DNA from: Alphaproteobacteria bacterium
GTDB lineage: Bacteria; Pseudomonadota; Alphaproteobacteria; UBA828
DNA length: 64,000 bases
Direction of reading: 5' to 3'
Assembly: GCA_963422645.2 (NCBI GenBank)
Contig: CAXXVO010000008.1
Span: 128,001-192,000, forward strand
Shown one piece after another: positions 1,778 to 62,824 of this stretch. Each line of letters begins with the position of its first letter. The first letter of the stretch is position 1. The notes below the pieces were generated by a model. That model was not told the DNA's origin, did no database searches, and saw only the letters and a program-made list of their open reading frames with translations. The position numbers and the translations under genes are program-made.

Positions 1778-1807
1778 GCGCCCCGAACATCGGGCGGCGG
1801 CGAACGC

Positions 1808-2056: not shown

Positions 2057-2060
2057 GGGC

Positions 2061-4364: not shown

Positions 4365-4367
4365 CAG

Positions 4368-17514: not shown

Positions 17515-17598
17515 GGATTTCCTCCCTCATGCCGTGGGCGTGCCACCACCGATTCGCCCATCCTAACCCGCAAGTCTCATCTCGGTCGCGGCGGAAAG

Positions 17599-28054: not shown

Positions 28055-28329
28055 TTCTGCGGGCTACCAGAAATATCCAGCGCCAATCAGCGTTCCAAAT
28101 GACAATAACCCACTGATAAAACGAAATTTCTTTCATTCAGTGCAGGCTGTCCGAATTCACTCCCAAGATTTGCGGAAGCAATCCGTAACCGGAGTTGGCT
28201 GTCTCGCCGTCACCTCCTGCCAGCCATGCCGGTAAGCGTTCCGGCGTAACCGTTCGGGTTCCGTAATCGTTCGTTCGGGCCGTGGAGACGCTATCTGCTT
28301 GATGCCTAGCTTTGGCGTGCCCTGGACGC

Positions 28330-29715
28330 ATGAGCGGCCCCGGCCGGCGGCCGGCGGCGCCCATGCCGCTCTACCCCTACCAGCACCGCTGGCTCGCCGA
28401 CCGCAGCCGCTTCAAGATCGGCATGTGGTCGCGCCAGATCGGCAAGACCTTCACCGCAACCCTGGAGATCGTCGACAGCGTCATGGAGGCCCGCGCGCGC
28501 GGCCGCGCCTCGCCCTGGCTGATCCTCTCGCGCGGCGACCGCCAGGCGCGAGAGGCCATGCGCGCCGGCATCCATGCCCACGCCCGCGCCTACGGGCTCG
28601 CGCTGGAGGCCCTGGAGTACGACCTGGCGATCGGCGACCAGGTCTTCCGCGCCCACGAATGGGACGCCGGCTCGGGCAACGTCGTCACCGCGCTGCCCGC
28701 CAACCCCGACACCGCCCGCGGCTACTCCCGCAACGTCTATCTCGACGAGTTCGCCCTGCACCGCGACAGCCGCGCGATCTGGGGCGCGCTCTTCCCCTCG
28801 ATCACCCGCGGCTGGAAGATCAGGATCACCTCCACGCCCAGGGGCAAGGCGGGCAAGTTCTACGAACTCATGACAAGCGACGACGGGCGCTGGTCGCGTC
28901 ATGCCGTCGATATCCACCGCGCGGTCGCGGACGGCTACCCCGCCGATATCGACGAGCTGCGCGCGGGCCTCGCCGACGAGGACCTGTGGCGCCAGGAATA
29001 CGAGTGCCAGTGGCTCGACGAGGCCTCGGCCTGGCTCCCCTACGACCTGATCGACGGCGCCGAAGACGAGGCGGCCGGCGAGCCTGCGGGCCACGCCGGC
29101 GGCCCCGTGTTCATCGGCAACGACATCGCGCGGCGCAACGATCTCTGGGTCGCCTGGGTGATCGAGACGGTCGGCGACGTCGCCTGGACCCGCGAGATCA
29201 GAACCCTCAGGGGCAAGACCTTCAGGGAGCAGGACGATACCCTCGATGCCCTGGTGGAGCGCTACAGACCGGTGCGCATCGCCATGGACCAGACCGGCAT
29301 GGGCGAGAAGCCGGTCGAGGACGCCAAACGCCGCTACGGCGCAACCCGTGTCGAGGGGGTGCTGTTCACCGGACCCCGCAAGCTCGACCTCGCCACCGCG
29401 CTGAAGGAGCGCTTCGAAGACCGCACCATCCGCGTGCCCTCCGGCGACCCGGTGCTCCGCGCCGACCTGCACGCCGTGCGCAAGACCGTCGGACCCACCG
29501 GCAGCCCCCGCCTCGCCGCCGACGGCGAGACCGACGGCCATGCCGACCGCTTCTGGGCCGCAGCGCTGGCCTGCGCGGCTGCCGCCGAAAGCCGCCCGCC
29601 CCCGGCCGGCGCCTGGGCGCAGGGCGATCCCCGCGACGCCTTCACACCCTCCCGCCTTGCCGGGCGCCAGCCCCTCACCATGTTCGGGCGGCCCGGGGAG
29701 GGGATGTGGCGGTGA
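28330..29715 (+). CDS. Phage terminase large subunit (Mu gp28-like)
   Basis: LYPYQ..W, SRQIGKT Walker A, YLDEFA Walker B, STPRG, GNDIAR, DQTGMG, HADRFWA. Confidence 0.9.
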   Translation: MSGPGRRPAAPMPLYPYQHRWLADRSRFKIGMWSRQIGKTFTATLEIVDSVMEARARGRASPWLILSRGDRQAREAMRAGIHAHARAYGLALEALEYDLAIGDQVFRAHEWDAGSGNVVTALPANPDTARGYSRNVYLDEFALHRDSRAIWGALFPSITRGWKIRITSTPRGKAGKFYELMTSDDGRWSRHAVDIHRAVADGYPADIDELRAGLADEDLWRQEYECQWLDEASAWLPYDLIDGAEDEAAGEPAGHAGGPVFIGNDIARRNDLWVAWVIETVGDVAWTREIRTLRGKTFREQDDTLDALVERYRPVRIAMDQTGMGEKPVEDAKRRYGATRVEGVLFTGPRKLDLATALKERFEDRTIRVPSGDPVLRADLHAVRKTVGPTGSPRLAADGETDGHADRFWAAALACAAAAESRPPPAGAWAQGDPRDAFTPSRLAGRQPLTMFGRPGEGMWR

Positions 29716-31136
29716 TCCGCTCGGCCCTCATCCGCATGCTCGGCGGCGCCCCGCCGCACGCTACCGCCCTCCGGGAGGCGGCGGGGAAGGGAATCGACAG
29801 GGACGAGGACCAGTGGCGCCCGCTCACCGGAGACGGACGCCGCGACCTCTCGCCGCTGACCCAGAGCAGGATGAGGAAGCTCGCGACGCACCTCTGGGAA
29901 ACCAACCTGCTCGCCCGCCAGCTCGTCGAGCTCCCCGTCGCCTTCCTCCTCGCCGACGGCGTGCGCGTGCGCGTCCCCGACCCGGACGCCCAGAAATGGC
30001 TCGACGCATGGTGGCGCGATCCCGTCACCGACATGCCGCTCCGCCTCCCCGAGCTCATGCGCGACCTCGCGCTCGCCGGCGAGACCGCATGGCCCGTCTT
30101 CGCAGACCCCGCCTCCGGCCACGTCCGCATGGCGTGGCTCGACCCCGACGCCGTCGAGACCGTGGTCATGGACCCCGACAACGCGTCCCGCCCCATCGGC
30201 ATCGTGACGAAGAAGGACCGCAGGGGCGAAGCCCGGCGCTACCGCACCGCCGTCGGCGGACCCGAAACCGTCCTCGCGCCCGCCGCCCGCGCCATCCGCG
30301 AGACCATGACCTCGGGCGACATCCTCTACTTCCGCGCCAACGCCAGGCCCGGCGCATCCCGCGGACGCTCCGACCTGCTCGCCGCCATCGACTGGCTCGA
30401 CGGATACGAGCGACACCTCTTCGGAGAGATCGACCGCGCCCACTTCCTCCGCGCCTTCGTCTGGGACGTCACCATGACCGGCGCCAGTCAGGAAGAGGTC
30501 GAGGAGCGCGCCGCAAGGGCCACGGCGCCCACGCCCGGAACCGTCCGCGTCCACAACGAGAGCGAGACATGGCAGGCGCTCGCCCCGGACCTCGGCGGCC
30601 GCGACCTCGACGCAACATCCCGCCTCTTCCGCAACCACCTGCTCGGCGGCGCCGGCATGCCCGAGCACTGGTTCGGCGGCGGCGGCGACGTCAACCGCGC
30701 AACCGCCGCAGAGATGGGCGATCCCGCCTTCAAGACCCTCAAGATGCGCCAGAGGCTGTGGACCGAGATCCTGCGCCGGGCCGCAGACTACGCCATCGCC
30801 CGCAGGCTCGACCCCTCCGGCGCATCATGGCCCGATCCCGCAGACCCCGCCCTCGCCGTCTCCGTCGAATGGCCCGAGATGGTGGTCGCCGACGCCTCCC
30901 GACACGCCGCCGCGCTCGCCCAGACCGCAGGCGCCGCGGCGCTGGCCATCGAGCGCGGCCTGCTCTCGGACGCCACCGCGCTCCGCGTCATCGCCGCCGT
31001 CGCCGGGCGCCTCGGCGTCGAGATCGACGCCGACGCCGAACTCGAGGCGGCGCGCGAAGACGCCGCCGGACGGGCCGAAGAAGACGCCTTCCGCGAGCCC
31101 CCGCAGGACGAGGACGACGACGACGGCGAGGCGTAG
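29712..31136 (+). CDS. Putative phage portal protein (not obviously DUF935-type)
   Basis: GTG start overlapping the terL stop; 474 aa between terL and MuF; GRSDL and GMPEHWFG...NRATA portal-like motifs. Confidence 0.75.
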   Translation: MIRSALIRMLGGAPPHATALREAAGKGIDRDEDQWRPLTGDGRRDLSPLTQSRMRKLATHLWETNLLARQLVELPVAFLLADGVRVRVPDPDAQKWLDAWWRDPVTDMPLRLPELMRDLALAGETAWPVFADPASGHVRMAWLDPDAVETVVMDPDNASRPIGIVTKKDRRGEARRYRTAVGGPETVLAPAARAIRETMTSGDILYFRANARPGASRGRSDLLAAIDWLDGYERHLFGEIDRAHFLRAFVWDVTMTGASQEEVEERAARATAPTPGTVRVHNESETWQALAPDLGGRDLDATSRLFRNHLLGGAGMPEHWFGGGGDVNRATAAEMGDPAFKTLKMRQRLWTEILRRAADYAIARRLDPSGASWPDPADPALAVSVEWPEMVVADASRHAAALAQTAGAAALAIERGLLSDATALRVIAAVAGRLGVEIDADAELEAAREDAAGRAEEDAFREPPQDEDDDDGEA

Positions 31137-31139
31137 CAC

Positions 31140-32072
31140 GTGGCTACCGACCGTCAGCGCGAGCGCAGGCTCAAGGGCGAGCGATCCCGCCGCGCCCGCG
31201 CCCTGCCCCGCATCCAGAAGGACACCGCCGCCGAGGTCGGCCGCATCCTCGGGCGCGCCGAGCGCGACATCCGGGCCACCCTCGCCGGCGCGCCCTCCGA
31301 TTACCAGGCATGGGCGCTGCCATCCCTCCAGGCCTCCGTCCGGGACGCCCTCGACAGCCTCGGCGCAGACGCCGGGCAGGCCATGGCCGAGGGCGCAACC
31401 CGCGCCTGGGACGCCGGCATCGATACCGTGAACGCCCCCGTCGACGCCGCCATGTGAGCGCGCGCGGTCCGCGTCGCCGCCATCCTGCCGCAGGTCGATA
31501 CCCGCCAGCTCCTCGCCATGCGATCCTTCCTCACCGCCAAAATGAAGGGCGTCTCCACCGCCCTCGCAAACCGCGTCAACACAGAACTCGGCCTGACCAT
31601 GATCGGAACCCGCAGCGTCGGCGAGACCACCGGCCGCGTCGCCGCCATCCTCAAGAGCGGCGGCAGGTCCCGCGCCCTGACAATCGTGCGGACCGAGCTC
31701 GGCCGCGCATACTCCATGGCCGGACAGCAGCGCATGGAGCAGGCCGCCGGGATCCTGCCGGGGCTGAGGAAGCAATGGCGCCGATCCGGCAAGCTCCGCG
31801 CCCGTATCAATCACGACGCCATCGACGGGCAGATCAGGGAGGTGGACAAGCCCTTCGCCGTCGGCGACGCTTCGCTCATGTATCCCCGCGATCCCGCCGG
31901 GCCGGCGAGCGAAACCATCAACTGCGGATGCCAGTCGCTGCCATGGATGGAAAGCTGGGAGGTCGGGAACCCCGGGCGAAAGCCCTTCTCCGACGAGGAG
32001 ATCGCACGCGACCCGCGGCGCGCCGATCTCGAAGGGAAGGAGGCCGGCGCGGGGACAACGCCGGCATCGTAG
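31140..32072 (+). pseudogene. Phage minor head protein (MuF-like) with one in-frame TGA at 31455-31457
   Basis: ORFs 31140-31457 and 31518-32072 share a frame; IVRTELGRA, KQW, HDAIDGQ, YPRDP...INCGC motifs. Confidence 0.8.
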
Positions 32073-32099
32073 ACCGGGCGAGGCGAAGCACCGCGCCGC

Positions 32100-32342
32100 A
32101 CCGGGATTTGCCGGCGAATCCGCACCCCCGGAACCGCGCCGATTTACAGGCCTTTCAGCACCCCTGAAACGCCCCGAAAATCCCCGCTTCCAGCCAATTC
32201 ACGGCCCTTTCCGGGCCGGATTCGCAAAGACTTTCGTCCGGCCCGCCAGCCCCCGGAAACGCCGCCAACCCCTTGACCGTCCGCCTTCTTCCGCCTTCTT
32301 CCCGGCATCTTCCGGATTCGCAATGACTTTCGTCCCCCCACA
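32100..32342. repeat. Right end of element 1 with two GATTCGCAA(A/T)GACTTTCGTCC sites
   Basis: Sites at ~32219 and ~32315; terminal ACA at 32342. Confidence 0.8.
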
Positions 32343-49382: not shown

Positions 49383-49817
49383 TGGGGCGGTTGATGTCAA
49401 GCACCGATCTGCACGATCTTCCGGCCGAGCACGGTCATTCGAACATGAGGCGTAACTACCCAGGTACCCCAATCCTGAGTTGAGGACGGTGATTATGGCG
49501 GCGGCCGCGGTCTGGTTCTGCCACCGCGATTGGTTCTTGACCTCATAGAGTTGCGGGACTATGGACTGCTCTCTCGCGTGACGGGAGCGGTCCATGGGGT
49601 ATTTCGGCTCGAAGGTGTCAATCGGCTTTCAATACTGACCCCCGATCGGCGTGCAAAATTGACCCCCCTGAGTGGCACGGCGGAGGTTGTCCCGGTAGCC
49701 AATAGGGGGGACCCGCGCGGCTTCGTGTGGCGCCCTGCGCTACGCGGAGCGAAGCCGCGTGGGGGGTCCCTGTTGGCCCACCGGGGCAACCGGGCCGCAA
49801 GGGAGGCCGGCGGCGGG

Positions 49818-50546
49818 TCAGGAGCGGTTCTTGAAGCGCCAGCTCTCGTTGCCGGTCTCGATGATCTCGCAATGATGGGTGAGGCGATCGAGCAGCGCTG
49901 TGGTCATCTTGGGGTCGCCGAAGACGGATGGCCATTCGCCGAAGGCGAGGTTTGTGGTGATGACGATCGAGGTGCGCTCGTAGAGCCGGCTCATCAGATG
50001 GAAGAGCAGCTGCCCACCGGCCTGGGCGAAGGGCAGGTAGCCGAGCTCGTCGAGGATGACGAAGTCGCGGCGGACGAGCTGGTCTGCAGTGCGGCCCTGG
50101 CGTCCGGCGCGAAGCTCGGCCTCGAGGAGGTTGACCAGGTCGACGACGTTGTAGCACCGGCCGCGCGCGCCCTTGCGGATGCAGGACCGCGCGATGGCGA
50201 CGGCGAGATGGGTCTTGCCGGTACCGGTGCCGCCGACCAGCACGATGTTGCGTTTGCCCTCGAGGAAGCCGCCGCCGGCGAGCTCCTGGATCAGGGGCTC
50301 GTTGACCGGCGAGGCGGCGAAGTCGAAGTCGGCCAGCTCCTTGACCGTCGGCAGCTTGGCGGAGGCCATCTGGTACTTGATCGAGCGGGCCCTCTTGTCG
50401 GCGATCTCGACCTGCAGCAGCGTACCGATGATCTGTTGCACCGGATGGCGGCGCTTGAGCCCGTCGGCAAGGATGTCGTCGTAAGCGGCGCGCATACCTG
50501 CGAGCTTCAGCTGGGTCATCATCTCCAGCACATCATGACGCTCCAT
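49818..50546 (-). CDS. istB: IS21 helper ATPase IstB
   Basis: [31 protein letters not shown]. Confidence 0.95.
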
Positions 50547-52059
50547 GACCGGCCTCCCTCAGGCTGTCGTAGCGCTGACAGTCGGCTACCGGCTTGTGGC
50601 GAAGCTGCAGGCCCTCGGGCGTCGGGATGATTGCCGGCGGTGCCGGCTGGCGCTGCCGGGCGAGGATGTTGAGCACCACGTCGGCGCTGCAGGCACCGCA
50701 GTCGAGCGTCTCGGCACAGGCCGCCTCAACCGCCTCCAGTCCGTCCTCCAGCACCGCCGCGAGCACCTTGACGAACTGCCGGTCGCCGTCGTCGTGGCCC
50801 GCGAGCCGGGTTCGCAGGCGGCCGAGCGCGTTGGGCAACTGCCAGTCCTTGAAGGGCGCGCCATTGCGTAGCGCGCCGGGCTTCCGCGTCAGGATCGGCA
50901 CGTAATGCCACGGATCGTAGACGAACCGGCCGCGCCCGAAGCTGCGGGGGTGCTCGGCAACGGTCTCGCCGTCCTGGCGGATGACGATCCGATCGGCATA
51001 GGCCCGCACGTCCACCGGCCGGCCGACGGCGCGGGCCGCGACGCTGTACTGGTTGTTGTCGAAGCGCACCAGACAGGTCTTCGAGACCGACACCTCGCTG
51101 GCATGGAAGCCGTCGAAGGGGCCGCGATACGCCATCAGGAAGGGCTGCTCCTCCTCGAACACCTGCCACACCGTCTTGCCCGGGATTGTCGGATGCGGAT
51201 GCTTCTTGGCGTCCTCGATGCACCGATCCATCAGCCACTCGTTGATCTCGGCGTAGGAGCGGCCCCGCGGGATGGGCACGAACAGGCGGCCGCGAAGGTC
51301 ACCCACCTGCTTCTCGACCTGCCCCTTCTCCCAGCCAGCCCCTGGCGTGCACGCCACAGGCTCCACCAGATGGTGCGAGCACAGCTCCTGGAAGCGGCGG
51401 TTGTAGTCCCGCTTCTTGCCCACGAAGATCGTGCTCACCGCCGTCTTCATGTTGTCGTAGATGCCCCGCCGGCAGACCCCGCCGAAGAAGCGGAAGGCAC
51501 GCTCGTGCGCCTCGAAGACCATCTCCTGGCTCTCGCGGGGAAAGATCTGGACCAGATACATCCGGCTGTGGCACAGCCGCATGTGCGCCGCCTTCACCCT
51601 GGTCGTCGCGCCCGACAGACGCGCGTACTCGTGGCTCCAGTCGAACTGGTAGGCCTCGCCGGGATCGAAGATCAGCGGCACATAGGCCTGCGCCGGCGAC
51701 AACAGCCGCCACCGGCGCCGCCAGGCCCTGGCATAGCGGCGAACCGCGTCATAGCCGCCCTTGTAGCCCAGCGACACAAGGTCTTCATGAATCCGCAGAA
51801 GAGACAGCCGATCCTTGCGTGCCTTCTTCTCGTTGGCCTTCAGCTGGCGCTCAAGCTCCTCCACCCACAGCCCAAGCTTCGGCATCGGCTGGATCTTGCG
51901 CTCGTAGCTGTGCGAGGTCGCATCGCCCCGCACCACCTTGCGTATCGTGTTCTTGGAAACCCTCAAATCCCGGGCGAGCTTCTTGATCGGAACGCCCTTC
52001 ACCAGATGATCCCGACGGATCTTCGCGATCGTTTCCACAACCAGCATCTCCCCCACCAC
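50533..52059 (-). CDS. istA: IS21 transposase IstA
   Basis: HTH N-terminus, [20 protein letters not shown]. Confidence 0.95.
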
Positions 52060-52166
52060 CCCGTCCGTCCAAACGACGAGGTGTGTTCATGGACACAAAT
52101 CCAAGGGGGTCAATTTTGGACGCCGATCACCCCCAATAGGGGGTCACTTTTCCACGCTTAACAACA

Positions 52167-53381
52167 CTCCGCGTCGGGCAGGCCGGCGATCGCGCCTCCC
52201 GGGTCGAGTTCCGTGAGCCAGTCGGGCGCCGTCATCGCCCGCGGGCGCAGCTCGGAAAGGCCAAAGCCGGCGGCGACGTCGATCAGATAGGCCGGTGGAG
52301 GCCGCCCTTCGGCAAGTCCGTCCGCGAGCGCGGCGGAAAGCGCGGTCTCGAAGGCTTCGAACGGTACGTCGAGCGCCCCCAGCTCGTCCTCCAGGTTGCA
52401 CGCGGCACTCAGGGCTTCGTCGTCCCGGAAGATGCGCGCGATGGTGACGCCGTGGCCGGCCTTGACCACCACCACCGCGCAAGCGGGTCCGTCCGCAGGG
52501 TCGAGCATGGCGGCGAGATGCTGCATGCTCGAGCCGGCCGGCAGGGCGGCGAGGAAACGCGTCGGACGGCCCGCGGGGCGCGCCATCGGGTGGAAGCGGC
52601 CCCGCAGCCGGGTCTCGCGCAGGGCGGTATCCAGCAAGGGACGCGCGGAATCCGCCGGCATCCAGTTCCGGATGAGCGGCACGAGCGCCGGCAGGGCGGG
52701 CTCCATGGCGTCGCCCCGCACCCGGCCGGAGAGGCCGCTGGCGGCCGCCAGGCGAACCTCGGGCGAGCGGTCCAGCAGCCAGTAGAGGGCGGCGCGGCCG
52801 TACCGCTCCTCTTCGCGCCCCGAAACATGGTGGACGAAGGTCGGCCTGAACTCGGACGGAAGGACCGCCATCAGGTTGGCGAGGAGGTCGTGCAGCAGAT
52901 GATCGTCGCCGCCCGCATGGCGCGCGAGACGGTCGATCTCCCCGTCCAGCAGGCCGGGAAACGCGGCAAGCGCCTGGCCGGTGCCGGGTTCGCCGGCGAA
53001 GATCGGGAAGAGGCATTCCGGCGCATCCAGGCCTGCGCGGATGAAGGCGCGTGCCAGACCGAGCGCGGCGTGGTCCGGGAGGTCGCCGCGGGCGGCCAGG
53101 GTATCGATGGCGCCGCGCGCCTCGGCGAGGAAGGGCTCGCCGAAGCGGCGTCGGTTCTCGGCATCGCGTTGCGCCCGTTCGACCAGGACCCCGAACAGGT
53201 CGAGCGGAGCGTTGCGCTCCGAGTCCGCGGTCCGCGCGATGCGGGCGGCGAGCATGGAAGCCATGCCCGTCCTGCCGAGAAGCACCGGCGCGTGCTGCTC
53301 CGCCAGCTCCCTTCGGTCGAGGAAGTCGTCGAAGCCGTCGAGCTCGTCGAGGCAGGCTTGCAGAAGATCGGCTTCGGGCAT
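52167..53381 (-). pseudogene. Paralog of 47444-49033, truncated by IS21
   Basis: Aligns up to MTAPDWL...DPGGAIAGL, then runs into the IS21 end. Confidence 0.75.
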
Positions 53382-54278
53382 GGTCGTGTCCGGGATAGAG
53401 GGCTGATGCCGGGGATCGAGACGCATCGTGCCATGGCGAGCCCGGTCGTTGAAGACGGCAGGGAGAGACGAAGAGGCGGCGGGGCGCCCGCAGCGGACAC
53501 CCCGCCGACGGTGGATCAGCGGCGCCGGGCGTCGACGAAAATGCCCGCCGCGTAGCTCCCCCACATTTGCATGCCCGAGTCCGTCAGGTTGACCCCGGTG
53601 CAGACGATGACCTCGTGGCGCTCGGGCCGCAGCCGCTGAACGGCCCGCAAGCTCATCGCCTTGCGCGCCTGCTTGCGTCCGCCCTTCGATCCCTTGCCGG
53701 GCCGCCAGGGCCGGATCTGGCCCTAGTAGTCGGACAGGTACCGCTCGACCACGTAGCGCTGGTCATCGAGCCCTTGCCCGAACAGGTGGGTGAGGTAGGT
53801 TCGGGCGTTTCCATGGAGTGTGCCGTTGATCTGCATGTGCCGCCTCCCGCTAGCCTGTGAGTGGAAGCGGCGAGGACGCCTCTCGCCGGACGCCGCACGC
53901 CGCGCCCCGCTTCAGGCCGGGCTCTCCCTCCTGCCGGCGTGAGGGCGCCGGCGCGGAGCAAGGATCGTGATGCGGGTTGAAGGCGGGGGGCCGCACGCCG
54001 CCGGGCCGGGCGGCCCTGCGGCGCCGCCGAGGCCCGGATGGGCGACGGCATGGCTGGGCCGTGCGCGGCTGCGGAGGACGGGGCGGCGATCCCGCTGCCG
54101 GGGTTTCCGCGGGCTTTTGAGGTCAGGAGTGGTCTGGAGTTTACTTCGGGGTGGTTACTGGGTGATTATTTTCCTCGTTCCGGCGTCGGGCACACGCTCG
54201 TGTCTTCTCCCAAGCTATTGAAATGAAATGGTTATGCGCGACGGCGCGCCCAACCGTGTTGGTGGTGAGAAATCCGGG

Positions 54279-54887
54279 CTAGCTGCCGCCGCCGTCCAGG
54301 TCTTCGGCGAGGGCGTCGCGGGTTTCTTCCGGCATGACCGCGAGATGGCCGTAGGCCGGGTGCTCGATGCCGAGCAGCACGCGCGTCCCCGGTATGTGGA
54401 ACCGCGCGGCCGAGGCAGGCTGGAAGGGGAAGCGGAGGAAATGGATCGAGGAGGTCTTGCCGTCTTCGGTTGTCCGCGCGACCTCGTCCTCGATCGGCTG
54501 GGCGGCGACGGAGGCCCCGCCGACCTCCAGCTTGATGGTGTCCTCGATCCCGGCCAGGCGGTAGAGCTCGCGCTCCCTGCGCGCCGGATCGTCGATCTCC
54601 AGCATCATCGTCGCGATCAGGGCATCGCCGCGCGGAACCAGAGGATTGTAGGCCTCGAGCTCGCCCGCGATCTGCTCTTCCCCACCGCGCTCGATATAAA
54701 GCATCTCGTGGACCTGCATCCACATGGTCTCGAAGCTCTCGAAATGGAAGGTGGCGAAGGGGCCGACGGCGAGTCGGCGGTTGCGCTTCAGCGCCGCAAT
54801 GGCGACGCGGCGCTCCTTGCGGACCCTGGCGTAGTCCGCCATGTCCATGATGTCGTCGCGGGTGAGCGCGCGGCGCTGCTGGCTCAT
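54279..54887 (-). CDS. DFsB/DUF3501-family protein
   Basis: QVHEMLYIE, ELEAYNPLVP, KTSSIHFLRF, IEHPAY; adjacent to the Fe-S oxidoreductase. Confidence 0.8.
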   Translation of the reverse strand: MSQQRRALTRDDIMDMADYARVRKERRVAIAALKRNRRLAVGPFATFHFESFETMWMQVHEMLYIERGGEEQIAGELEAYNPLVPRGDALIATMMLEIDDPARRERELYRLAGIEDTIKLEVGGASVAAQPIEDEVARTTEDGKTSSIHFLRFPFQPASAARFHIPGTRVLLGIEHPAYGHLAVMPEETRDALAEDLDGGGS

Positions 54888-56263: not shown

Positions 56264-56530
56264 TTACCGGCACGAACCGCAGAGACGGTTACCCGGCCCT
56301 GCGCTATCGAAGAGGCGGCTACAGCGCAGGCAGCGGCGCTGGCTCTCTTGTGCCTCCAGGCGATCGAGCTCCGCGAGTTCGTCGGAGAGCGAGATCATCC
56401 CGGGTCCGCGATCTACATTCCTGGCGGCTTCACGCCGCGCATCCCATTTGGTCCGTCGTTGAGGCGCGAGCGACATCATTTGGCGCGAGTTCCCTAGCGA
56501 AGTCGTCTGGTGGGCATCCGGTAGGACCAT
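56264..56530 (-). CDS. Small zinc-ribbon hypothetical protein
   Basis: C-terminal RCLRC..F.S.GPGNRLCGSC; start uncertain. Confidence 0.55.
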   Translation of the reverse strand: MVLPDAHQTTSLGNSRQMMSLAPQRRTKWDARREAARNVDRGPGMISLSDELAELDRLEAQESQRRCLRCSRLFDSAGPGNRLCGSCR

Positions 56531-56610
56531 TGTAGCGGAACACGGCGCCCGATCTAAGCCGAAATTTCATATCGGGTGCCCAAAATAGACACCTAATACC
56601 CTGTGGGGGG

Positions 56611-56748
56611 CTATTCGGCGGCCTCAGTGCTGCCTGCGGGCGTGCGGAAGGCCGGAATCACGGCCTCGGCGAAAAGCCGCAGGCTTTTCAATAGATTATC
56701 CGCGCCGTAATAGGGCGGGTAGTGAAGCAGTAGGGAATCGAGTCCGGT
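56611..56748 (-). pseudogene. 3' fragment of the LLM monooxygenase split by element 2
   Basis: TGLDSLLLHYPPYYG...SLRLFAEAVIPAF; joins 61883-62824 in frame when the element and one GGCGG are removed. Confidence 0.9.
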
Positions 56749-56759
56749 GGCGGTGTAGC

Positions 56760-56803
56760 CGGCCAGAAGTCTTTGCGAATCGCGGCCAGAAGTCTTTGCG
56801 AAT
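56760..56803 (+). repeat. Two tandem 21-bp putative transposase-binding sites
   Basis: CGGCCAGAAGTCTTTGCGAAT at 56760-56780 and 56783-56803. Confidence 0.9.
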
Positions 56804-56860
56804 GGCCTGGAAAACAGGCTGATTTTCGGGGCTGATTCGGGCTGGAAAAACGGCCTCTGC

Positions 56861-57334
56861 ATCGGCAGGACGCAGAAGGAGATCCTCGGCGTTCTGAACG
56901 CCGCCCTCGGGGAGCGCGGCGAGGAACCCATCGGCGCCGCCTCGCTCAACCGCTACGTCAACCGCCCCGCGATCCGGGCGCTCGCCGAGCGCGCCCGGGC
57001 GGCGTGCGAGATGGGCGCCGCGATCGCGCAGTCGGCCGGGGAGGGCGCCGGCGCCGCGCTCGACCGCGGACTGGTCCAGGCGGGCCAGACGCTCGCCATG
57101 GAGGCGCTGCCCGCCATCCCCTGGGACGAGCTCGAGCCCGAGGACAGGGTGAAGCTGATCGCCAATTTCGGGCTCGCCGTGCGCCGCTTCGCATCGTCGG
57201 CCGCCGTGGCCGACGCCCGCGGGCGAGCGATCCGCGCCGATGCCGCCGAAGCCGCCGTGAAGGAAGCGCGCAGACAGGGGCTGTCGGCCGAGGGCGCGGC
57301 GAAGATCCGCGCGCAAATCGAGGGGGCGGCATGA
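56861..57334 (+). pseudogene. Mu gp27/DUF3486-like (putative small terminase), 5'-truncated
   Basis: Frame upstream of ORF 57011 reads GRTQKEILGVLNAAL..GEEPIGAASLNRY; C-terminal GLSAEGAAKIR; ATGA overlap with terL; no canonical start upstream. Confidence 0.7.
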
Positions 57335-58767
57335 GCCGGGCGCTCCTGCCCTACCAGAGCCGCTGGGTTGCAGACAGGGCACAGCTCAAGATCGTCGAGA
57401 AGTCGCGCCGCATCGGCCTGTCCTGGGCCGAGGCCTACGACGCCGTGATGCACGCCGCCGTGGGTGGGGGCAACGTCACCTACCAGTCCTACGACAGGGA
57501 GATGACCAGAGGCTTCGTCGACGACTGCGCGGACTGGGCGGAGCACCTGGACTTCGAGGCCGGCGCCATCGGCGAGAGCGTCATCGATGCCGGCAATGCC
57601 AGGGCCGTGCAGGTGTTCCGCATCCGGCTCGCATCGGGGAAGACCATCACGTCGATGACCAGCGCGCCGCGCGCGCTCAGGTCCAGGGGACGCCCCGGAG
57701 ACCGGGCGATAATCGACGAGGCCGCCTTCGTCGACGACCTGGGCGAGGTGCTCAAGGCCGCGCTCGCCTTCCTCACGTGGGGCGGGCGGGTCCATGTGAT
57801 CTCGACCCACAACGGCGAGGCCAGCCCCTTCAACCTGCTGCTGCGCGACGTGCGCGAGGGCCGCCAGCCGGGGTCGGTCCACAGCATCCCCTTCCGCCGG
57901 GCCGTCGCAGAAGGGCTGGGCCGGCGCATCTTCGAGGTGACGGGCAAGGAGTACTCGCCCGGGGCGGAGGCCGAATGGGAGGCCGGGATCCGGCGCACCT
58001 ACGGCCACCGGGGCGCCGAGGAGCTCGACTGCGTGCCCAGTGCAGGGACCGGCGCCTGGCTCGCATGGGACCTGATCCGCGAGCGCGAGCACCCGGACGC
58101 GGGCGATCCTGTGCGCCACGCCGGCGGGAGCACCTGGATCGGCGTCGACGTGGCGCGGCGCCGCGATCTCTGGGTCGCCGCCGTCATCGAGAAGGCCGCC
58201 GACGCGCTCTGGGTGCGCGAGATCGTCGCCCGCCAGGGCATCCCGTTCAGCGAGCAGCGCAGGATCGTGCGCGGCCTCGCCGAACGCTACCGCCCGCTCC
58301 GCATCGCGGTCGACCAGACCGGCATGGGCGAGGCCGTGGTCGAGCAGTGGCAGGAGGACCACGGCACGCTGCGGGTCGAGGGCGTGCTCATGACCGGCCC
58401 GCGCCGGCTGGATGCCGCCACCGCGCTGCGCGAGGCCATGGAGGACAAGCGCCTGCGCCTCCCCGCAGACGAGGCATTGCGCCGCGACCTCCACGCCGTG
58501 CGCGCCGAGGCCGGACCCACCGGCTCGCCCCGCCTGGTCGCCGAGCGCTCGGGCACCGACGGCCACGCCGACCGCTTCTGGGCGCTCGCGCTCGCCTGCC
58601 TCTCGGCCTCGCAGGCATCCGGCCCCTTCCAGGCCTGGATCGGCGAGGGCCGCCACGCCGTCCATGACATGCCGGGCTCCCCCTTCGACGGCGATACCGG
58701 CTACCGCATCGACACCGAACTCGGCGTCGTCCATTCCCCCCTCTCCGCCCTGAACGGCTGGCGATAG
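57331..58767 (+). CDS. Phage terminase large subunit (Mu gp28-like)
   Basis: LLPYQ..W, EKSRRIGLSW, IIDEAAF, ISTHNG, DQTGMG, HADRFWA. Confidence 0.92.
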   Translation: MSRALLPYQSRWVADRAQLKIVEKSRRIGLSWAEAYDAVMHAAVGGGNVTYQSYDREMTRGFVDDCADWAEHLDFEAGAIGESVIDAGNARAVQVFRIRLASGKTITSMTSAPRALRSRGRPGDRAIIDEAAFVDDLGEVLKAALAFLTWGGRVHVISTHNGEASPFNLLLRDVREGRQPGSVHSIPFRRAVAEGLGRRIFEVTGKEYSPGAEAEWEAGIRRTYGHRGAEELDCVPSAGTGAWLAWDLIREREHPDAGDPVRHAGGSTWIGVDVARRRDLWVAAVIEKAADALWVREIVARQGIPFSEQRRIVRGLAERYRPLRIAVDQTGMGEAVVEQWQEDHGTLRVEGVLMTGPRRLDAATALREAMEDKRLRLPADEALRRDLHAVRAEAGPTGSPRLVAERSGTDGHADRFWALALACLSASQASGPFQAWIGEGRHAVHDMPGSPFDGDTGYRIDTELGVVHSPLSALNGWR

Positions 58768-58770
58768 CCC

Positions 58771-60258
58771 ATGGCCGCGCCCGCCCCCGCACGTCCCGGG
58801 ACCGCCGAGATCGCAGGCCCGCAGGCCGGCATCGGCGGCATCGGCGAGCTCGTCCTCCCCTGGCTCGACAGCGACCCGGCGCTCGGCGCCGACCCCCGCC
58901 AGTGGCAGGCCGATCCCACCGGGATCGCGGCCGCACAGGCCGCGCTCCGCGACCCCCACGCCCGCGCCGTCCTCGACCAGCGCCTCGACGCCGTCACGGC
59001 CGCCCCCCTCGATATCGAACCCGGCGGCCCGATGCGCCGCGACAGACAGGCCGCCGGGGACCTCGCGGACCAGTTCGGCGGGATCGGGATCGACCGCATC
59101 TCCCGCGAACTCCTCCACGCCGCCTGGTACGGATACAGCATCGCCGAGTGCATCTGGGAGATCGACGGCGCCCGCGTCCGCCTCGCCGATCTCAAGGTCC
59201 GCGACCCCGCCCGCTTCCGCTGGCGCAGGGACGGAACCCCGCTGCTCGTTACCCGCGAGAACCCGCGCGGCGCCGAACTCCCGCCCGCCAAGTTCGTCGT
59301 GCTCGCCCAGCCCCGCAGCCACGGCGGCCAGCCCCACGGCCCCGGCGCCGCACAGTGGTGCCTCTGGCCGGTCTGGCTCAAGCGCCAGGCTGTGCGCATG
59401 TGGGCGGTCGCGCTCGAGAAGTTCGGCAGCCCCACCGCCATCGGCACCGTCCGCCGCGACGCGCCGGCGGCCGAGATCGAGACGATGCTCCAGGCCCAGC
59501 GCGCCATGGCCGGAGGCACCGGCCTCGTCATCCCCGAAGGCCAGGAACTCAAGCTGCTCGACTCGGTCCGCCGCGCCGGCGGCGACTACGGCGCCTTCGT
59601 CGCAGCCCTCGACGGCATGATCGCGGACGCCGTCCTCGGCCAGCGCGCAACCTCCGAGATCGGACCCTGGCGCGGCACCGCCGAAGTCCAGGCCAAGGTG
59701 CTGGAGCGCCTCGTCGCCGCCGACGCCCGACGGCTCTCCGCCGCGCTGCGCAACTCCGTCGCCGCCTGGCTCACCCAATGGAACTTCCCCGGCGCAGACG
59801 TGCCCGAACTCGCCCGCAACACCGCGCCCCCCGAGGATCTCGTGGCCCGCGCCAGGCGCGAGGAGACCGTCGCCCGAACCTCGGGCCTCCGCCCCACCCC
59901 CGCCCATGTCGAGCAGGTCTACGGCGGAGAATGGGAGAAAGCCCCCGCCCCACCCCCGACGCCAGGCGGCGATCCCCGCCCCGCGCGCCTCGCCGAGCCG
60001 GCGCAGCAGGACGACGACGCCATCGACGACGCCGTGGACGCGATCGCCGCAGACTGGCAGCCCCTCGTGGAGCCGGTCGTCGCCCCCGTGCTCGGCGCCG
60101 CAGAGAACGCCGACAGCCTCGGCCGCTTCCGTGCCGCGCTCGACGAGCGCCAGCTCTGGGAGGACATGAACGCAGACCGCATCGCCCGCCGCCTCCGCCG
60201 CACCGCATTCTCCGCCCGCCTCTCCGGCGACGCAGGCCTCGACGAGGGCGAGGGCTGA
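58771..60258 (+). CDS. Mu gp29/DUF935-like portal protein
   Basis: DPH....LDQR, A.WYGYSIAECIW, EKFGSP, VLGQ; position after terL. Confidence 0.88.
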   Translation: MAAPAPARPGTAEIAGPQAGIGGIGELVLPWLDSDPALGADPRQWQADPTGIAAAQAALRDPHARAVLDQRLDAVTAAPLDIEPGGPMRRDRQAAGDLADQFGGIGIDRISRELLHAAWYGYSIAECIWEIDGARVRLADLKVRDPARFRWRRDGTPLLVTRENPRGAELPPAKFVVLAQPRSHGGQPHGPGAAQWCLWPVWLKRQAVRMWAVALEKFGSPTAIGTVRRDAPAAEIETMLQAQRAMAGGTGLVIPEGQELKLLDSVRRAGGDYGAFVAALDGMIADAVLGQRATSEIGPWRGTAEVQAKVLERLVAADARRLSAALRNSVAAWLTQWNFPGADVPELARNTAPPEDLVARARREETVARTSGLRPTPAHVEQVYGGEWEKAPAPPPTPGGDPRPARLAEPAQQDDDAIDDAVDAIAADWQPLVEPVVAPVLGAAENADSLGRFRAALDERQLWEDMNADRIARRLRRTAFSARLSGDAGLDEGEG

Positions 60259-61451
60259 TGCCCGCGCCCGAGATCCTGGACGTACCCCCCGCCGAGGCCG
60301 TCGAGCACTTCCGCGCCAGGGGCTTCCACACAGGCTTCGACTGGCGCGACACCGATGCCGAGCAGCACCTGGTCTCCTTCACCGCCGCCAAGGCCGCGAA
60401 GCTCGACATCCTCCAGGACCTGCGCACCGCCGCCGACAAGGCCATCGCGGACGGCACAACCTTCGAGACCTTCGCCAGGGAGCTGCAGCCCACCCTGGTC
60501 CGCAAGGGATGGTGGGGCAGGCAGCCCATGACCGATCCCCTCACCGGCAAGACGCGCATCGTCCAGCTCGGCTCGGCCCACCGCCTGCGCATTATCTTCG
60601 ATACCAACATCCGCATGGCCTACGCCCGCGGCCGATGGGAGCGCATCGAGCGCCTCAGGGAGGCCATGCCCTGGCTCCGCTACGTCGCCGTCCAGGACGC
60701 CCGCACCAGGCCCGACCACCTCGCATGGCACGGCACCATCCTTCCGGTCGATCACCCCTTCTGGCAGACGCACTACCCGCCCAACGGATGGAAGTGCCGC
60801 TGCATCGTCCAGCAGCTCGGAGACGACGACCTGGAGCGCTACGGATACAAGGTGTCCGAGGGTCCGCCGCCCGGCTCCGGGCGCACCAGGCCCTGGAAGA
60901 ACCGCCGCACAGGCCGCATCCACCAGGTCCCCCTCGGCATCGATCCCGGCTTCCAGCACAACGTCGGCCGCGCCCGGCCCGGGCGCGACAGCGCAAACCG
61001 CCTGATCGAGAAGATCGACGACGCGCCCCCCGACCTCGCACGCGCCGCCATAGGCCAACCCTGGCGCGGGCAGCTCTTCCGCCGCCACCTCGAAGGCCGG
61101 TCCGACGCCGACTGGCCCGCGGCCGTGCTCTCCGCCCCGGTGCGCGGCGCCATCGGCGCACGCTCCCGAACCGTCCGCCTCTCCACAGAAACCGCCGCAA
61201 AGCAGGCCAGGCGACACCCCGATCTCGAACCCGCAGACTACGCCCGCGTCCAGCGCATCCTCGATCAAGGGGAGATGTTCGCCGGCTACGAACGTCAGGC
61301 CGTCGGCTTCCTCGAAGAGAACGGCCGCCTGTGGCGCGCCGTCGTCAAGGCCACCGTGGACGGCTCCGAGACTTATCTCGTGACCCTTCACAAGGCGCAG
61401 CCCCGGGACCGCGACGTGGCGCAGCGGCGTTGGGTCAGGATCGAGCTTTGA
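60258..61451 (+). CDS. Mu gp30 (MuF) head morphogenesis protein with a C-terminal nuclease-like (PBECR-type) extension
   Basis: RLRIIFDTN, DARTRPDH, HYPPNGWKCRC, DPGFQHNVG; about 110-aa tail KQARRHPDL...DY...AVVK...YLVTLH. Confidence 0.85.
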   Translation: MPAPEILDVPPAEAVEHFRARGFHTGFDWRDTDAEQHLVSFTAAKAAKLDILQDLRTAADKAIADGTTFETFARELQPTLVRKGWWGRQPMTDPLTGKTRIVQLGSAHRLRIIFDTNIRMAYARGRWERIERLREAMPWLRYVAVQDARTRPDHLAWHGTILPVDHPFWQTHYPPNGWKCRCIVQQLGDDDLERYGYKVSEGPPPGSGRTRPWKNRRTGRIHQVPLGIDPGFQHNVGRARPGRDSANRLIEKIDDAPPDLARAAIGQPWRGQLFRRHLEGRSDADWPAAVLSAPVRGAIGARSRTVRLSTETAAKQARRHPDLEPADYARVQRILDQGEMFAGYERQAVGFLEENGRLWRAVVKATVDGSETYLVTLHKAQPRDRDVAQRRWVRIEL

Positions 61452-61460
61452 AGGGAAAGA

Positions 61461-61529
61461 TGGCGCCGGGCGGGCCGCAACCCCCGCGCTCGCCCGAAGG
61501 CATGAGAGTCATGCGTGCTTCCAGCGCCA
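61461..61529 (+). ncRNA. Candidate structured RNA downstream of MuF
   Basis: Closing stem TGGCGCCGG/CCAGCGCCA enclosing CGGGCGGGC/GCTCGCCCG and GCATGA/TCATGC hairpins; pairing found by eye only. Confidence 0.35.
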
Positions 61530-61619
61530 CGCCGACCCTACGCGCCGCCGCACGCCACCTCAAGCCGATTCAGCGCCCCGGCGCGGGCCGCCGCCAGCCT
61601 CGCGGGACGGGCGCCTCGC

Positions 61620-61882
61620 CCCGGATTTTCCAGCCGAATCCGATACCCCGAAACCGACCCGATTTGCCGCCGTCGCAAGACCCCTGAAACGCCCCGAAAA
61701 TCGCCGTTTCCAGCCAATTCACGGCCTCTGCACGGCCCGATTCGCAAAGACTTCCGTCCGCACGCCAGCCGCCGCACCGCCACCGTGCCGCCGCGCATCC
61801 CCTTGAGATTCCGCCACCTTCCGCCCGATTCCGCCTGATTCCACCCCTTGACCCGATTCACAACGACTTTCGTCCGTCTACA
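61620..61882. repeat. Right end of element 2
   Basis: GATTCGCAAAGACTTCCGTCC (~61739) and GATTCACAACGACTTTCGTCC (~61855); similar to 32100-32342. Confidence 0.85.
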
Positions 61883-62824
61883 GGCGGCGCGCAGCGCCCG
61901 GATGCGGGCGATCACGGTCTCGGGCGAGCCGTGGACCAGGGTGGTCTCCAGCAGCGTGTCGTAGTCGAACGCCCCGGCGCTCTCCTTCTCCGAGACGTTG
62001 CCGAGGTAGCCTGCGGTCTTTTTGCCGAGGAACGCTTCGAGGTGGCGGATGATCCCTGCCTCGCTCTCCTCCCGCGCCTTGGCGTCGGTCTCGGCCACAT
62101 AGATCCAGCGGGCGATATTGATGGAGCCGAAGGCCGGATTGGCGTTCCAGGGTGCCGGGGCGTGGGTCATGGTCTCGCGATAGAGGGCGATCTGCCCAGC
62201 GAGGGTCTCGAACGAAGGCAGGGTGGAGAGCATCAGGCCGAAGCCGTGGCGCGCCGCGATTTCGATTGAACGGTTCGTGCCGGCGGCCATGTAGAATGGC
62301 GGATGCGGCTGCTGCACGCTCACGGGGTAGATCTCGTAGTCGCCCTCGACCCGGTGCTGGAAGTGGGCGCCCTCATGGCTGACCTTCCGCGTATGGAAGG
62401 CGTCGAGAATCAAGGGGATGGCTTCTTCCTGAATGTCGTGGCGTGCGTCGAAGGGGATCCCGAAGCCCTCGTATTCGTAGGGCCGATAACCGGAACCGAG
62501 GCCCAGGCTGAGCCGCCCGTTGCTCAAGATGTCAACGAAGGCCGCGTTCTCGACGATCCGAACCGGGTTGTGGAGCGGGAGCGTCATCACCGCCGTGCCG
62601 AGCCCGATGCGGCTGGTCTTGGGCGCCAGATAGGCCAGATAGACGAAGGGATCCGGCAGCACGCCGTACTGGTTGGAGAAGTGGTGTTCGGCGATCCAGG
62701 CGGTGTCGTAGCCCAGCCGGTCCGCCTCCACGATCTCGCGGGTCACGCGCGCGTGCACGGCGCGGTGCGGATAAGGTTCAACATCGAGATTGGGCTGAGA
62801 GGTAACCAGAACACCGAATTTCAT
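61883..62824 (-). pseudogene. LLM-class flavin-dependent monooxygenase, 5' part (insertionally inactivated)
   Basis: WIAEHH, GRLSLGLGSGY, QQPHPP, HGSPETV; reconstructed length 359 aa. Confidence 0.9.

What the first reader, a model, noticed from the sequence alone, without database searches (positions are those of the whole stretch)
56754..61882. 5.1-kb transposase-less element carrying only a phage DNA-packaging module (candidate transposable-phage satellite or natural mini-Mu)
Seen in sequence: TGTAG...CTACA termini, a perfect 5-bp duplication GGCGG, and insertion inside an LLM gene whose halves rejoin in frame (RIRALRAA|TGLDSLL). The entire cargo is truncated gp27, terL, portal and MuF. 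There is no transposase, MuB/TnsC ATPase, repressor, capsid, protease or tail gene. Established: TG...CA ends with 5-bp duplications mark the Mu/Tn7/Tn5053 DDE group, and gp27-28-29-30 is the Mu head gene order. Inference: a non-autonomous element moved in trans, whose own terminase and portal could redirect a helper phage's heads or interfere with its packaging, analogous to PICI-type satellites but transposition-based.
Basis: partly seen in the sequence, partly recalled or inferred. Interest (0 to 1): 0.88.

Follow-up and report, generated by a model that had tools for sequence, protein, structure and literature searches.

The report
Gutted Mu-like prophage copy, not satellite
The 5.1-kb insert is a real transposon-style insertion, but it is one of about forty differently gutted leftovers of a Mu-like phage in a genome full of jumping elements, not a purpose-built phage parasite.

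Summary
Window 56754-61882 has TGTAG...CTACA ends and a perfect GGCGG duplication. It splits a luciferase-like monooxygenase (LLM) gene that rejoins in frame. It carries a 5'-truncated gp27 (small terminase), terL, a Mu-type portal and MuF, and no transposase.

The satellite reading does not hold. The genome has about 41 left and 43 right tips of the same end family. Twenty cis pairs (0.9-22.7 kb) have matching 5-bp duplications. Each copy is a left arm of variable length (tail and fibre genes reading outward) joined to a right arm of variable length (GemA, lysis, gp27, terL, portal, MuF reading outward).

The "packaging-only cargo" is the longest surviving right arm in a nested series of 19 different breakpoints. 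All 20 of 20 paired copies have junctions found nowhere else in the genome. This copy's junction carries a 4-nt microhomology.

Divergence from the closest copies is neutral (omega about 0.94; 0.1 rejected). gp27 lacks its first ~28 residues and a start codon. I found no promoter-like site and no Mu-type transposase in the genome.

Contigs from two other sequencing runs show the empty site, so the insertion is polymorphic. Best reading: a decayed, now immobile copy of a Mu-like prophage. The end-retaining swarm and the inferred phage layout are the moderately interesting parts.

The parts
56749..56753 (.). left copy of the 5-bp target duplication GGCGG
56754..56866 (+). left end (113 bp), starting TGTAG. 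It has two adjacent 23-bp transposase-site repeats (56760-56782, 56783-56805) followed by a GGCTGGAAAA...GATTTTCGGGGC motif. It is 100% identical to 10 other copies over all 113 bp (an eleventh, C12:45860, matches only the first 62 bp).
56863..56866 (.). deletion junction with a 4-nt overlap (CGGC) between the left end and the gp27 coding sequence
   Evidence: Contigs of runs X5 (record 18) and X6 (record 24) match from 56863 and continue upstream with sequence unlike this left end. The canonical left end continues CATGCACGG in 9 of 12 copies.
56867..57334 (+). gp27-like small terminase remnant, about 28 N-terminal residues missing; the first in-frame start codon is at 57011
   Evidence: phrog_426, profile 29-183 of 184; ORF list; translation
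57331..58767 (+). terL, large terminase, 478 aa, open; ATGA overlap with the gp27 stop
58771..60258 (+). Mu-type portal, 495 aa, open
   Evidence: Portal_Mu 6.6e-78; phrog_113
60258..61451 (+). MuF-like head morphogenesis protein, 397 aa, open; the start overlaps the portal stop
   Evidence: Phage_Mu_F 1.3e-22; frame
61452..61882 (+). non-coding right end ending CTACA, with transposase-site repeats at 61736-61760 and 61852-61876 (116 bp start to start). The last ~270 bp are 73-74% identical to the B-type right end.
61883..61887 (.). right copy of the target duplication GGCGG
61888..62824 (-). N-terminal 312 aa of the interrupted luciferase-like monooxygenase gene
   Evidence: Bac_luciferase 6.5e-63
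56611..56753 (-). C-terminal tail of the same LLM gene, in frame after excision
   Evidence: empty-site contigs in runs X1 and X5

Best explanation
The element is a defective, internally deleted copy of a Mu-like transposable prophage.

Origin. A phage-encoded DDE transposase inserted a phage copy into the LLM gene and made the 5-bp duplication. An illegitimate deletion across a 4-nt microhomology removed everything between base 113 of the left end and about codon 29 of gp27. That stretch held the tail, head and early genes. The deletion most likely happened after insertion, but this is not shown.

What remains. Both transposase-binding ends survive, together with the phage's right arm (gp27', terL, portal, MuF). 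In this phage lineage the right arm reads outward to the right tip, so its presence says nothing about function.

Current state. The copy now appears inert. Its small terminase is crippled, I found no promoter-like site and no regulator, and no cognate transposase was found in the genome. Its genes drift neutrally.

Context. It is one of about forty such shells in a genome also loaded with IS21-, IS66- and IS4-family elements and a 5.2-kb transposon.

Shown: the ends, the duplication, the gene identities, the copy census, the unique junctions, the neutral substitution pattern and the empty site in other runs. Inferred: the order of insertion and deletion, the parental layout, and the present immobility.
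For: (1) Copy census. About 41 left and 43 right tips occur in the genome. Twenty cis pairs of 893-22,672 bp have matching 5-bp flanks. Five further left/right tips match in trans, against 0.95 expected (p about 0.006).

(2) Two-arm structure in every copy. Left arms carry genes reading toward the left tip: a 146-aa protein, a 2OG-Fe oxygenase and a 1412-aa J-like tail-tip protein, or Gly-rich fibre-like proteins. Right arms carry GemA, SLT, Gp27, terL, portal and MuF reading toward the right tip.

(3) Head and tail genes travel with the same ends. A protease (phrog_976), cement protein, E-like capsid, Mu gp36 and Phage_tail_S lie inside the 22.7-kb TSD-bounded copy that also holds an A-type terL-portal-MuF arm. 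A second fragment on C16 adds a major tail protein and a tape-measure start.

(4) Nested breakpoints. The 19 A-type right arms begin at 19 different points, element positions 114 to 5053. This copy is the longest.

(5) Unique junctions. Forty-mers across each arm junction occur once in the genome in 20 of 20 paired copies.

(6) Neutral drift. Pooled omega is 0.94 against C9:16450 (29 substitutions; omega 0.3 rejected at p=0.008, omega 0.1 at p=2e-8). It is 0.93 against the C8 copy (11 substitutions; omega 0.1 rejected at p=5e-4).

(7) Crippled packaging set. gp27 lacks about 28 N-terminal residues and has no start before 57011. The scan found 0 sigma-70-like sites in 56500-62100.

(8) No cognate transposase found. 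There are no Mu-transpos_C or HTH_Tnp_Mu_1 matches. All 114 rve matches fall in IS3-like elements, the IS21-like element, the 5.2-kb transposon or singletons; the two singletons I scanned are IstA-like. The TnpA of phage phiSHP3 finds only weak IS matches.

(9) Microhomology. The junction carries a 4-nt overlap, CGGC.
Against: The three large ORFs (terL, portal, MuF) are all intact.

Both ends are 100% identical to many other copies.

Contigs of two runs from two studies join 56748 to 61883, which is the empty site. The insertion is therefore young or polymorphic. That leaves little time for a ~30-kb deletion after insertion and keeps open that it arrived already shortened.

If all ~40 copies went in full-length, it is notable that so many kept both tips.

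The neutral-drift test rests on only 29 and 11 substitutions, and differences between copies could partly reflect recombination.

The assembly has 23 contigs, so a helper hidden in unassembled repeats cannot be excluded.

The parental layout is reconstructed from fragments. No intact copy was found anywhere.
Confidence: 0.7

Rival explanations
1. Natural mini-Mu. The 5.1-kb form arose at another site and was then moved as a unit into the LLM gene by a helper phage's transposase acting in trans on its intact ends. It has no packaging role.
For: Both ends are intact with all four site repeats, and the TSD is perfect. The ends are 100% identical to 10 or more other copies. The empty site in runs X1 and X5 shows a recent or polymorphic insertion. 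Contigs in X5 and X6 continue upstream of gp27, so fuller A-type copies exist in other strains. The survival of about 40 copies with both tips would follow naturally if end-bearing shells are what gets moved.
Against: No second copy of this junction exists in the genome, and none of the 20 paired copies has a twin. Replicative Mu-type transposition keeps the donor, so twins would be expected. No cognate transposase was found in the genome. The junction has the microhomology of an ordinary spontaneous deletion.
Confidence: 0.22
2. Transposition-based phage satellite. The element is kept because its own terminase, portal and MuF hijack or block a helper phage's packaging.
For: terL, portal and MuF are open reading frames next to an end that could hold a pac site. 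No capsid or tail genes lie in the element. No such satellite turned up in the three literature searches.
Against: The cargo is a chance breakpoint in a nested series of 19. Another right arm with terL-portal-MuF lies in the same window with no left end at all. The small terminase is truncated and has no start codon. The recent substitution pattern is neutral. The architecture is not repeated at any other site and the end pattern was not found in three public collections. There is no regulator, no replication function and no promoter-like site. No helper was found in the genome.
Confidence: 0.04
3. Member of the Tn7/Tn5053 transposon group that captured phage genes as cargo.
For: TGT...ACA tips, a 5-bp duplication and several subterminal repeats are shared with that group (recalled, not tested). 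A 5.2-kb transposon with rve, AAA_22 and AAA_25 genes is abundant in the genome.
Against: That transposon has unrelated ends, TGAGCGCGCG...CGCACGCTCA. Everything found between TGTAG ends, apart from nested IS elements, is phage-like where it has a family match: GemA, SLT, Gp27, terL, portal, MuF, protease, capsid, gp36, tail genes. No TnsABC or TniABQ set lies inside any copy as its own module.
Confidence: 0.03

Closest known systems
Mu-like transposable phages (Mu, B3/D3112-like, BcepMu-like such as Stenotrophomonas phage phiSHP3)
   Same: TG...CA tips, a 5-bp duplication and several transposase sites at each end. One end has two adjacent sites, as in the Mu right end R1-R2 (passage read in PMC5961161). 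Shared genes are GemA, gp27, terL, Portal_Mu, MuF, gp36 and a gpG-like protein. The portal is 34-38% identical to those of these phages.
   Different: No transposase A/B, repressor, capsid or tail genes in this copy. In the reconstructed parent, the packaging block reads outward to one tip and the head-tail block reads outward to the other. In phiSHP3, gp27 through the tail genes form one rightward block. No close relative exists in the phage, plasmid, viral-contig or species-genome collections.
Laboratory mini-Mu / mini-D3112 (ends kept, lethal functions removed)
   Same: Both ends are kept and the early and lethal genes are gone, which is the description of the engineered minis (passage read in PMC8705779).
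   Different: This one is natural. No evidence shows that it was ever moved in this form (no twin), and no transposase source was found in the cell.
PICI / cf-PICI / P4-type phage satellites
   Same: A small element with some packaging genes and no full virion gene set.
   Different: It has no integrase, replication or helper-sensing module, no intact small terminase, and no conserved architecture across copies. It evolves neutrally. The properties of these satellite families are recalled, not tested here.
Ac/Ds-type families of internally deleted non-autonomous DNA transposons
   Same: Many copies share both ends, and each has its own internal deletion.
   Different: Those are eukaryotic cut-and-paste elements whose deletions come from gap repair (recalled). 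Here the parent is a phage and mobility of the shells is not shown.

Membership tests
Mu-like transposable prophage (defective copy) | TG...CA termini with a 5-bp target duplication | tested here: met
   TGTAG/CTACA and GGCGG on both sides; 20 cis pairs with matching 5-bp flanks
Mu-like transposable prophage (defective copy) | Several subterminal transposase-binding repeats at both ends | tested here: met
   Two tandem 23-bp sites on the left and two sites 116 bp apart on the right, with a shared consensus. Binding itself was not tested.
Mu-like transposable prophage (defective copy) | Mu-type late genes (gp27, terL, Portal_Mu, MuF) and, in sister copies, GemA, gp36 and gpG-like | tested here: met
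Mu-like transposable prophage (defective copy) | DDE transposase A and ATPase B encoded between the ends | tested here: not met
   Absent from this copy and not found in any copy or elsewhere in the genome. Hence 'defective'.
Mu-like transposable prophage (defective copy) | Insertion at many unrelated sites | tested here: met
   19 different 5-mers among 20 pairs on 9 contigs
Mobile non-autonomous mini-element (mini-Mu or MITE-like) | The same deleted form present at two or more sites with different duplications | tested here: not met
   Junction 40-mers are unique genome-wide in 20 of 20 paired copies. Positions 114-591 of this element occur once.
Mobile non-autonomous mini-element (mini-Mu or MITE-like) | A source of cognate transposase in the same cell | tested here: not met
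   The assembly has 23 contigs and 99.6% completeness, so absence is not proven.
Phage satellite (PICI-like) | Conserved gene set kept by selection | tested here: not met
   omega 0.94 and 0.93 against the nearest copies; 19 different right-arm breakpoints
Phage satellite (PICI-like) | Working packaging-redirection gene (intact small terminase or capsid remodeller) | tested here: not met
   gp27 lacks about 28 N-terminal residues and a start codon
Phage satellite (PICI-like) | Helper-dependent induction and packaging | not testable with these tools
   Needs induction and virion sequencing. No RNA run was listed.
Tn7 / Tn5053 group | TnsB/TniA transposase with a TnsC/TniB ATPase as the element's own genes | tested here: not met
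   The only rve+AAA_22 module is a separate 5.2-kb transposon with different ends

The most novel reading that the evidence does not exclude
The genome records a burst of forty or more insertions of a so far unseen Mu-like phage lineage. In that lineage the packaging genes read out to one tip and the head-tail genes to the other. Its copies survive only as shells that keep both ends. The shells may not be passive wrecks: they could be made and moved in trans by a helper still present in sister strains, a bacterial counterpart of Ac/Ds. In that case this polymorphic 5.1-kb copy would be a recently mobilised natural mini-Mu.
Probability: 0.2. Interest if true: 0.65.

Novelty: new member of a known kind. 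Interest (0 to 1): 0.35.

Why it matters
For the finding as proposed, little. It removes a candidate for a new class of satellite and shows how a "packaging-only" cargo can arise as a by-product of where a deletion happened to stop.

The setting is more useful. A single genome holds about forty end-retaining remnants of one transposable-phage family, with dated-looking layers (ends 100% identical against about 90%), nested IS insertions and at least one polymorphic site. That is a natural series for three questions: how transposable prophages decay, why the early (lethal) region is always the part lost, and whether the shells can still be moved.

Two side observations could be followed up cheaply. 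An IS21-family element sits just inside these ends far more often than chance predicts. And the inferred divergent layout of the parent phage differs from known Mu-like phages.

Tried and rejected
- The 60509-61687 ORF as MuF: rejected. It has no Pfam or PHROG match and an Arg/Pro-rich translation. The MuF frame is 60258-61451. My tblastn identities labelled A_MuF used the wrong frame and are not quoted.
- The rve/AAA_22 genes inside some copies as the cognate transposase: rejected. They belong to a separate 5.2-kb transposon with its own ends and about 25 copies.
- Two singleton rve matches (C22:64929, C16:190938) as a MuA candidate: both are IstA-like, with Mu-transpos_C_2 and HTH_23.
- Small contigs C1 and C2 as pieces of a helper: C2 holds only a portal remnant next to a 1150-aa gene, as in genus relatives. 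C1 holds a diverged MuF piece and end variants.
- Genus relatives as a guide to the native layout: G004, G018 and G011 have only terL and/or the first ~390 residues of a ~52-55%-identical portal. They have no MuF or head genes, and only one loose match (3 mismatches) to the end-site motif, in G018.
- The end motif in other collections: 0 matches in genome contigs, metagenome contigs and viral contigs.
- The 113-bp left end in the genus: 0 of 20 other genomes, apart from one 27-nt match in G011.
- The portal in wider collections: best 54% in viral contigs and 34% in species genomes.
- The whole element against plasmids: no match. Against phages: only short conserved pieces.
- Mu gpT capsid family: no match in the genome. 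The capsid of this lineage is E-like.
- Expression: no RNA holder was listed, so nothing can be said about it.
- Literature: three searches gave no report of a transposition-based satellite or of a natural swarm of deleted Mu-like copies. I read only listings plus passages of PMC8705779 and PMC5961161. Supplements were not opened.
- The exact coincidence of this junction with an IS21 insertion at left-end position 113/114 in copy C6:351607 stays unexplained. The 4-nt overlap makes the coincidence less exact.


Full report
**1. What is at the coordinates**

The element runs from TGTAG at 56754 to CTACA at 61882. It is flanked by GGCGG on both sides. Cutting out the element and one GGCGG in a script restores a single minus-strand frame...RIRALRAA|TGLDSLLLHYPP..., that runs to a stop. 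The upstream 312 aa match Bac_luciferase over 307 of 314 profile positions.

The termini are long, composite ends. The left end has two adjacent 23-bp repeats (56760-56782 and 56783-56805). The right end has the same repeat twice in inverted orientation, 116 bp apart (61736-61760 and 61852-61876). Both ends also share a GGCTGGAAA...GATTTTCGGGGC motif.

The genes are as follows.
- A gp27-type small terminase, truncated at its 5' end (56867-57334). It matches phrog_426 from profile position 29 of 184. Its first in-frame start codon is at 57011.
- terL (57331-58767), with an ATGA overlap onto the gp27 stop.
- A Portal_Mu portal (58771-60258).
- MuF (60258-61451; Phage_Mu_F 1.3e-22).

The longer ORF at 60509-61687 in my ORF list is a wrong frame over the MuF DNA. 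No transposase, ATPase, repressor, capsid or tail gene lies in the element.

**2. The element is not alone**

BLAST of the element against its own 5.9-Mb, 23-contig genome shows dozens of copies of both ends. I counted about 41 left tips and 43 right tips.
- Left ends come in two versions: 100% identical to this one, and about 90% identical.
- Right ends come in an A version (as here, tip CGTCCGTCTACA) and a B version (tip CGTCCCCCTACA, 73-74% identical over the last ~270 bp).

Twenty left/right pairs in correct orientation have identical 5-bp flanks. There are 19 different 5-mers among them, and the pairs span 893 to 22,672 bp. Five more left and right tips share a 5-mer across contigs, against 0.95 expected (p about 0.006). 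These look like single insertions later split by rearrangement. The end family is a real, once very active, Mu-type transposable unit.

**3. Every copy is two arms and a private junction**

All-against-all comparison, Pfam/PHROG scans and tblastn give one consistent picture.

From the left tip inward lie genes that read toward that tip. In the 100%-type left arm these are a 146-aa protein, a 2OG-Fe(II) oxygenase and a 1412-aa J-like tail-tip protein. In the 90% type they are 298-, 256- and 262-aa proteins, one with a Gly-rich domain.

From the right tip inward lie genes that read toward that tip: MuF, portal, terL and gp27. In the longest B-type copy (C6:351607, 12.1 kb) the arm continues with an SLT lysozyme and GemA.

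The 22.7-kb copy on C8 has matching TGGTC flanks. It holds an A-type terL'-portal-MuF arm and, in the left-arm direction, a head maturation protease (phrog_976), a cement protein, an E-like capsid protein, Mu gp36 and a Phage_tail_S protein. A Dam-like methylase lies divergent from the protease. A second fragment on C16 repeats that block and adds an S24 repressor-like gene, a major tail protein and the start of a tape-measure gene.

They lie on the other arm.

Both A and B right arms end MuF-then-tip. Yet their terL proteins are only about 41% identical and their portals match different families: Portal_Mu against a weak Phage_portal_2 match. I infer that "packaging block reading out to one tip" is the native layout of this phage lineage and is older than the A/B split. 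This differs from phiSHP3, a BcepMu-like phage, where gp27 through the tail genes form one block. No intact copy was available to verify the inference.

**4. The cargo is a chance breakpoint**

The 19 A-type right arms begin at 19 different element positions: 114 (this copy), 592, 812, 1780, 2857, 3613, 3808, 3967, 3974, 4303, 4339, 4858, 4878, 4896, 4919, 4941, 4962, 4973 and 5053. This copy simply has the longest surviving arm.

The same window holds a B-type right arm with terL, portal and MuF at 28325-32342. It has a mutated tip and no left end.

A 40-mer census shows that the words spanning each arm junction occur once in the whole genome. This holds for 20 of 20 paired copies, including this one, whose positions 75-591 are unique. 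No deleted form is present twice.

The canonical 100%-type left end continues CATGCACGG after base 113 in 9 of 12 copies. This copy switches to gp27 sequence there. Contigs from two other runs match this copy's gp27 from 56863 and then run on upstream with other sequence. The junction therefore carries a 4-nt overlap (CGGC), the mark of an ordinary illegitimate deletion.

**5. Selection and function**

Against the colinear copy at C9:16450-19799 I counted 7.7 synonymous and 21.3 non-synonymous changes over 735 and 2172 sites. Omega is 0.94. This is compatible with 1 (p=0.83) and rejects 0.3 (p=0.008) and 0.1 (p=2e-8).

Against the C8 copy the counts are 3 and 8, giving omega 0.93 and rejecting 0.1 (p=5e-4). 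Deeper MuF comparisons give 0.4-0.6, in several copies with indels whose length is not a multiple of three.

The small terminase is crippled. No sigma-70-like site was found in 56500-62100 (a weak test). The host gene is on the opposite strand, so read-through from it cannot serve these genes.

**6. No helper here**

- Mu-transpos_C and HTH_Tnp_Mu_1 give no match in the genome. The control genomes gave none either, so these two blanks are weak.
- The 114 rve matches fall into IS3-like elements, the IS21-like element, a 5.2-kb transposon with different ends, and a few singletons. The two singletons I scanned are IstA-like.
- phiSHP3 TnpA finds only weak IS matches. phiSHP3 TnpB finds only the AAA_22 gene of that 5.2-kb transposon, at 24% identity.
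- GemA occurs once in the genome and no Mor was found.

The early region has been purged from every copy. That fits selection against lethal early functions.

**7. Elsewhere**

- The 113-bp left end is absent from the 20 other genomes of the genus, apart from a 27-nt match in G011.
- A degenerate two-site pattern has no match in the species-genome, metagenome or viral collections.
- The nearest portals are 54% identical in a viral contig, about 52% in genus genomes and 34-38% in isolated Mu-like phages.
- Contigs of four public runs were laid on the locus. In X1 and X5, from two studies, one contig each joins 56748 directly to 61883 with a 5-nt overlap. This is the empty LLM site. In X5 the contig has 249 and 218 matching letters on the two sides.
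- A contig of X2 runs from the flank 29 nt into the left end. That is under the 31 letters asked for a bridge, so it is only a hint that X2 is filled.

The insertion is therefore polymorphic in the species. This argues for a fairly recent event and is the main point in favour of the rival "arrived already short".

**8. Verdict**

The element is a defective copy of a Mu-like transposable prophage that kept both ends and one arm. I give 0.70 to the reading "decay product without function of its own, now immobile". I give 0.22 to "moved in trans in this short form". I give a few per cent each to a true satellite and to a Tn7/Tn5053-type transposon.

The order of insertion and deletion is the main open point. 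Strain comparison would settle it.

**9. What is of wider interest**

- About forty end-retaining shells of one transposable-phage family lie in one genome. I found no report of this in three full-text searches (listings and a few passages only). [quoted passage not shown]
- The inferred divergent layout of the parent phage.
- A strong excess of IS21-like insertions just inside the ends. Fourteen of 84 tips have an IS21 end within 400 bp, against 0.0095 expected per tip. Three are at the same position, 198 bp from the right tip, in both orientations.

Noticed in passing
window 28325-32342: A second, B-type right arm of the same phage family (terL 461 aa, portal 476 aa, MuF 312 aa), 97.9% identical to the copies at C6:351607 and C13:170596. 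Its tip is mutated (...CCCCCCACA) and it has no left end.
   Followed up: partly
window 17593-19496: IS66-family insertion sequence (DDE_Tnp_IS66 3.5e-39, zf-IS66). This stretch has more than 100 megablast matches elsewhere in the genome.
   Followed up: partly
window about 49428-54282 (IS21-like copy at 49614-52167): One of about 58 full-length copies of a 2551-bp IS21-family element (IstA 508 aa, IstB 242 aa). Nearly all copies are 100% identical, which points to a very recent burst.
   Followed up: partly
genome-wide, e.g. G000:C6:351607, C10:39703, C9:570772, C19:136610: IS21-like ends lie within 400 bp inside 14 of 84 tips of the Mu-like family (5 of 41 left, 9 of 43 right; chance about 0.0095 per tip). 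Three lie at the same point 198 bp from the right tip, in both orientations. This could be target preference for Mu-type ends or survivorship.
   Followed up: partly
G000:C8:135589-140777 and about 24 other places (L003:5511-12866): A 5.2-kb transposon with ends TGAGCGCGCG...CGCACGCTCA. It carries HTH_23 + rve, AAA_22, AAA_25 and a 289-aa gene. About 25 copies are more than 99.6% identical. It is often nested in the phage remnants and is unrelated to their ends.
   Followed up: partly
G000:C16:155000-174000 (L040): A prophage fragment between two IS21 copies: HNH, S24 repressor-like, Dam, head protease, cement, E-like capsid, gp36, Phage_tail_S, major tail protein and a tape-measure start. It is 91-98% identical to the head block of the 22.7-kb copy on C8.
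   Followed up: partly
G001-G020 (e.g. L016, L017, L023) and G000:C2:4427-4711: 18 of 20 other genomes of the genus hold a portal match, mostly about 52% identical and covering only the first ~390-400 residues. In the three regions I fetched it comes with or without a 66-69% identical terL, without MuF or head genes, and in G004 and on G000:C2 next to a 1150-aa gene. It looks like an old, vertically kept remnant.
   Followed up: partly
G000: C14:63015/C19:154904, C15:22446/C14:131213, C15:297860/C14:105180, C17:4848/C13:47701, C10:254647/C6:429104: Five left and right tips on different contigs, or far apart, share the same 5-bp flank (0.95 expected). These are insertions later split by rearrangement, which would help order the contigs or trace inversions.
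   Followed up: partly
window 56500-56748 joined to 61883-62100 in runs X1 and X5: Empty-site contigs exist in two runs of the same species label. X1 is also the best holder of the element, so filled and empty forms may coexist in one sample.
   Followed up: no
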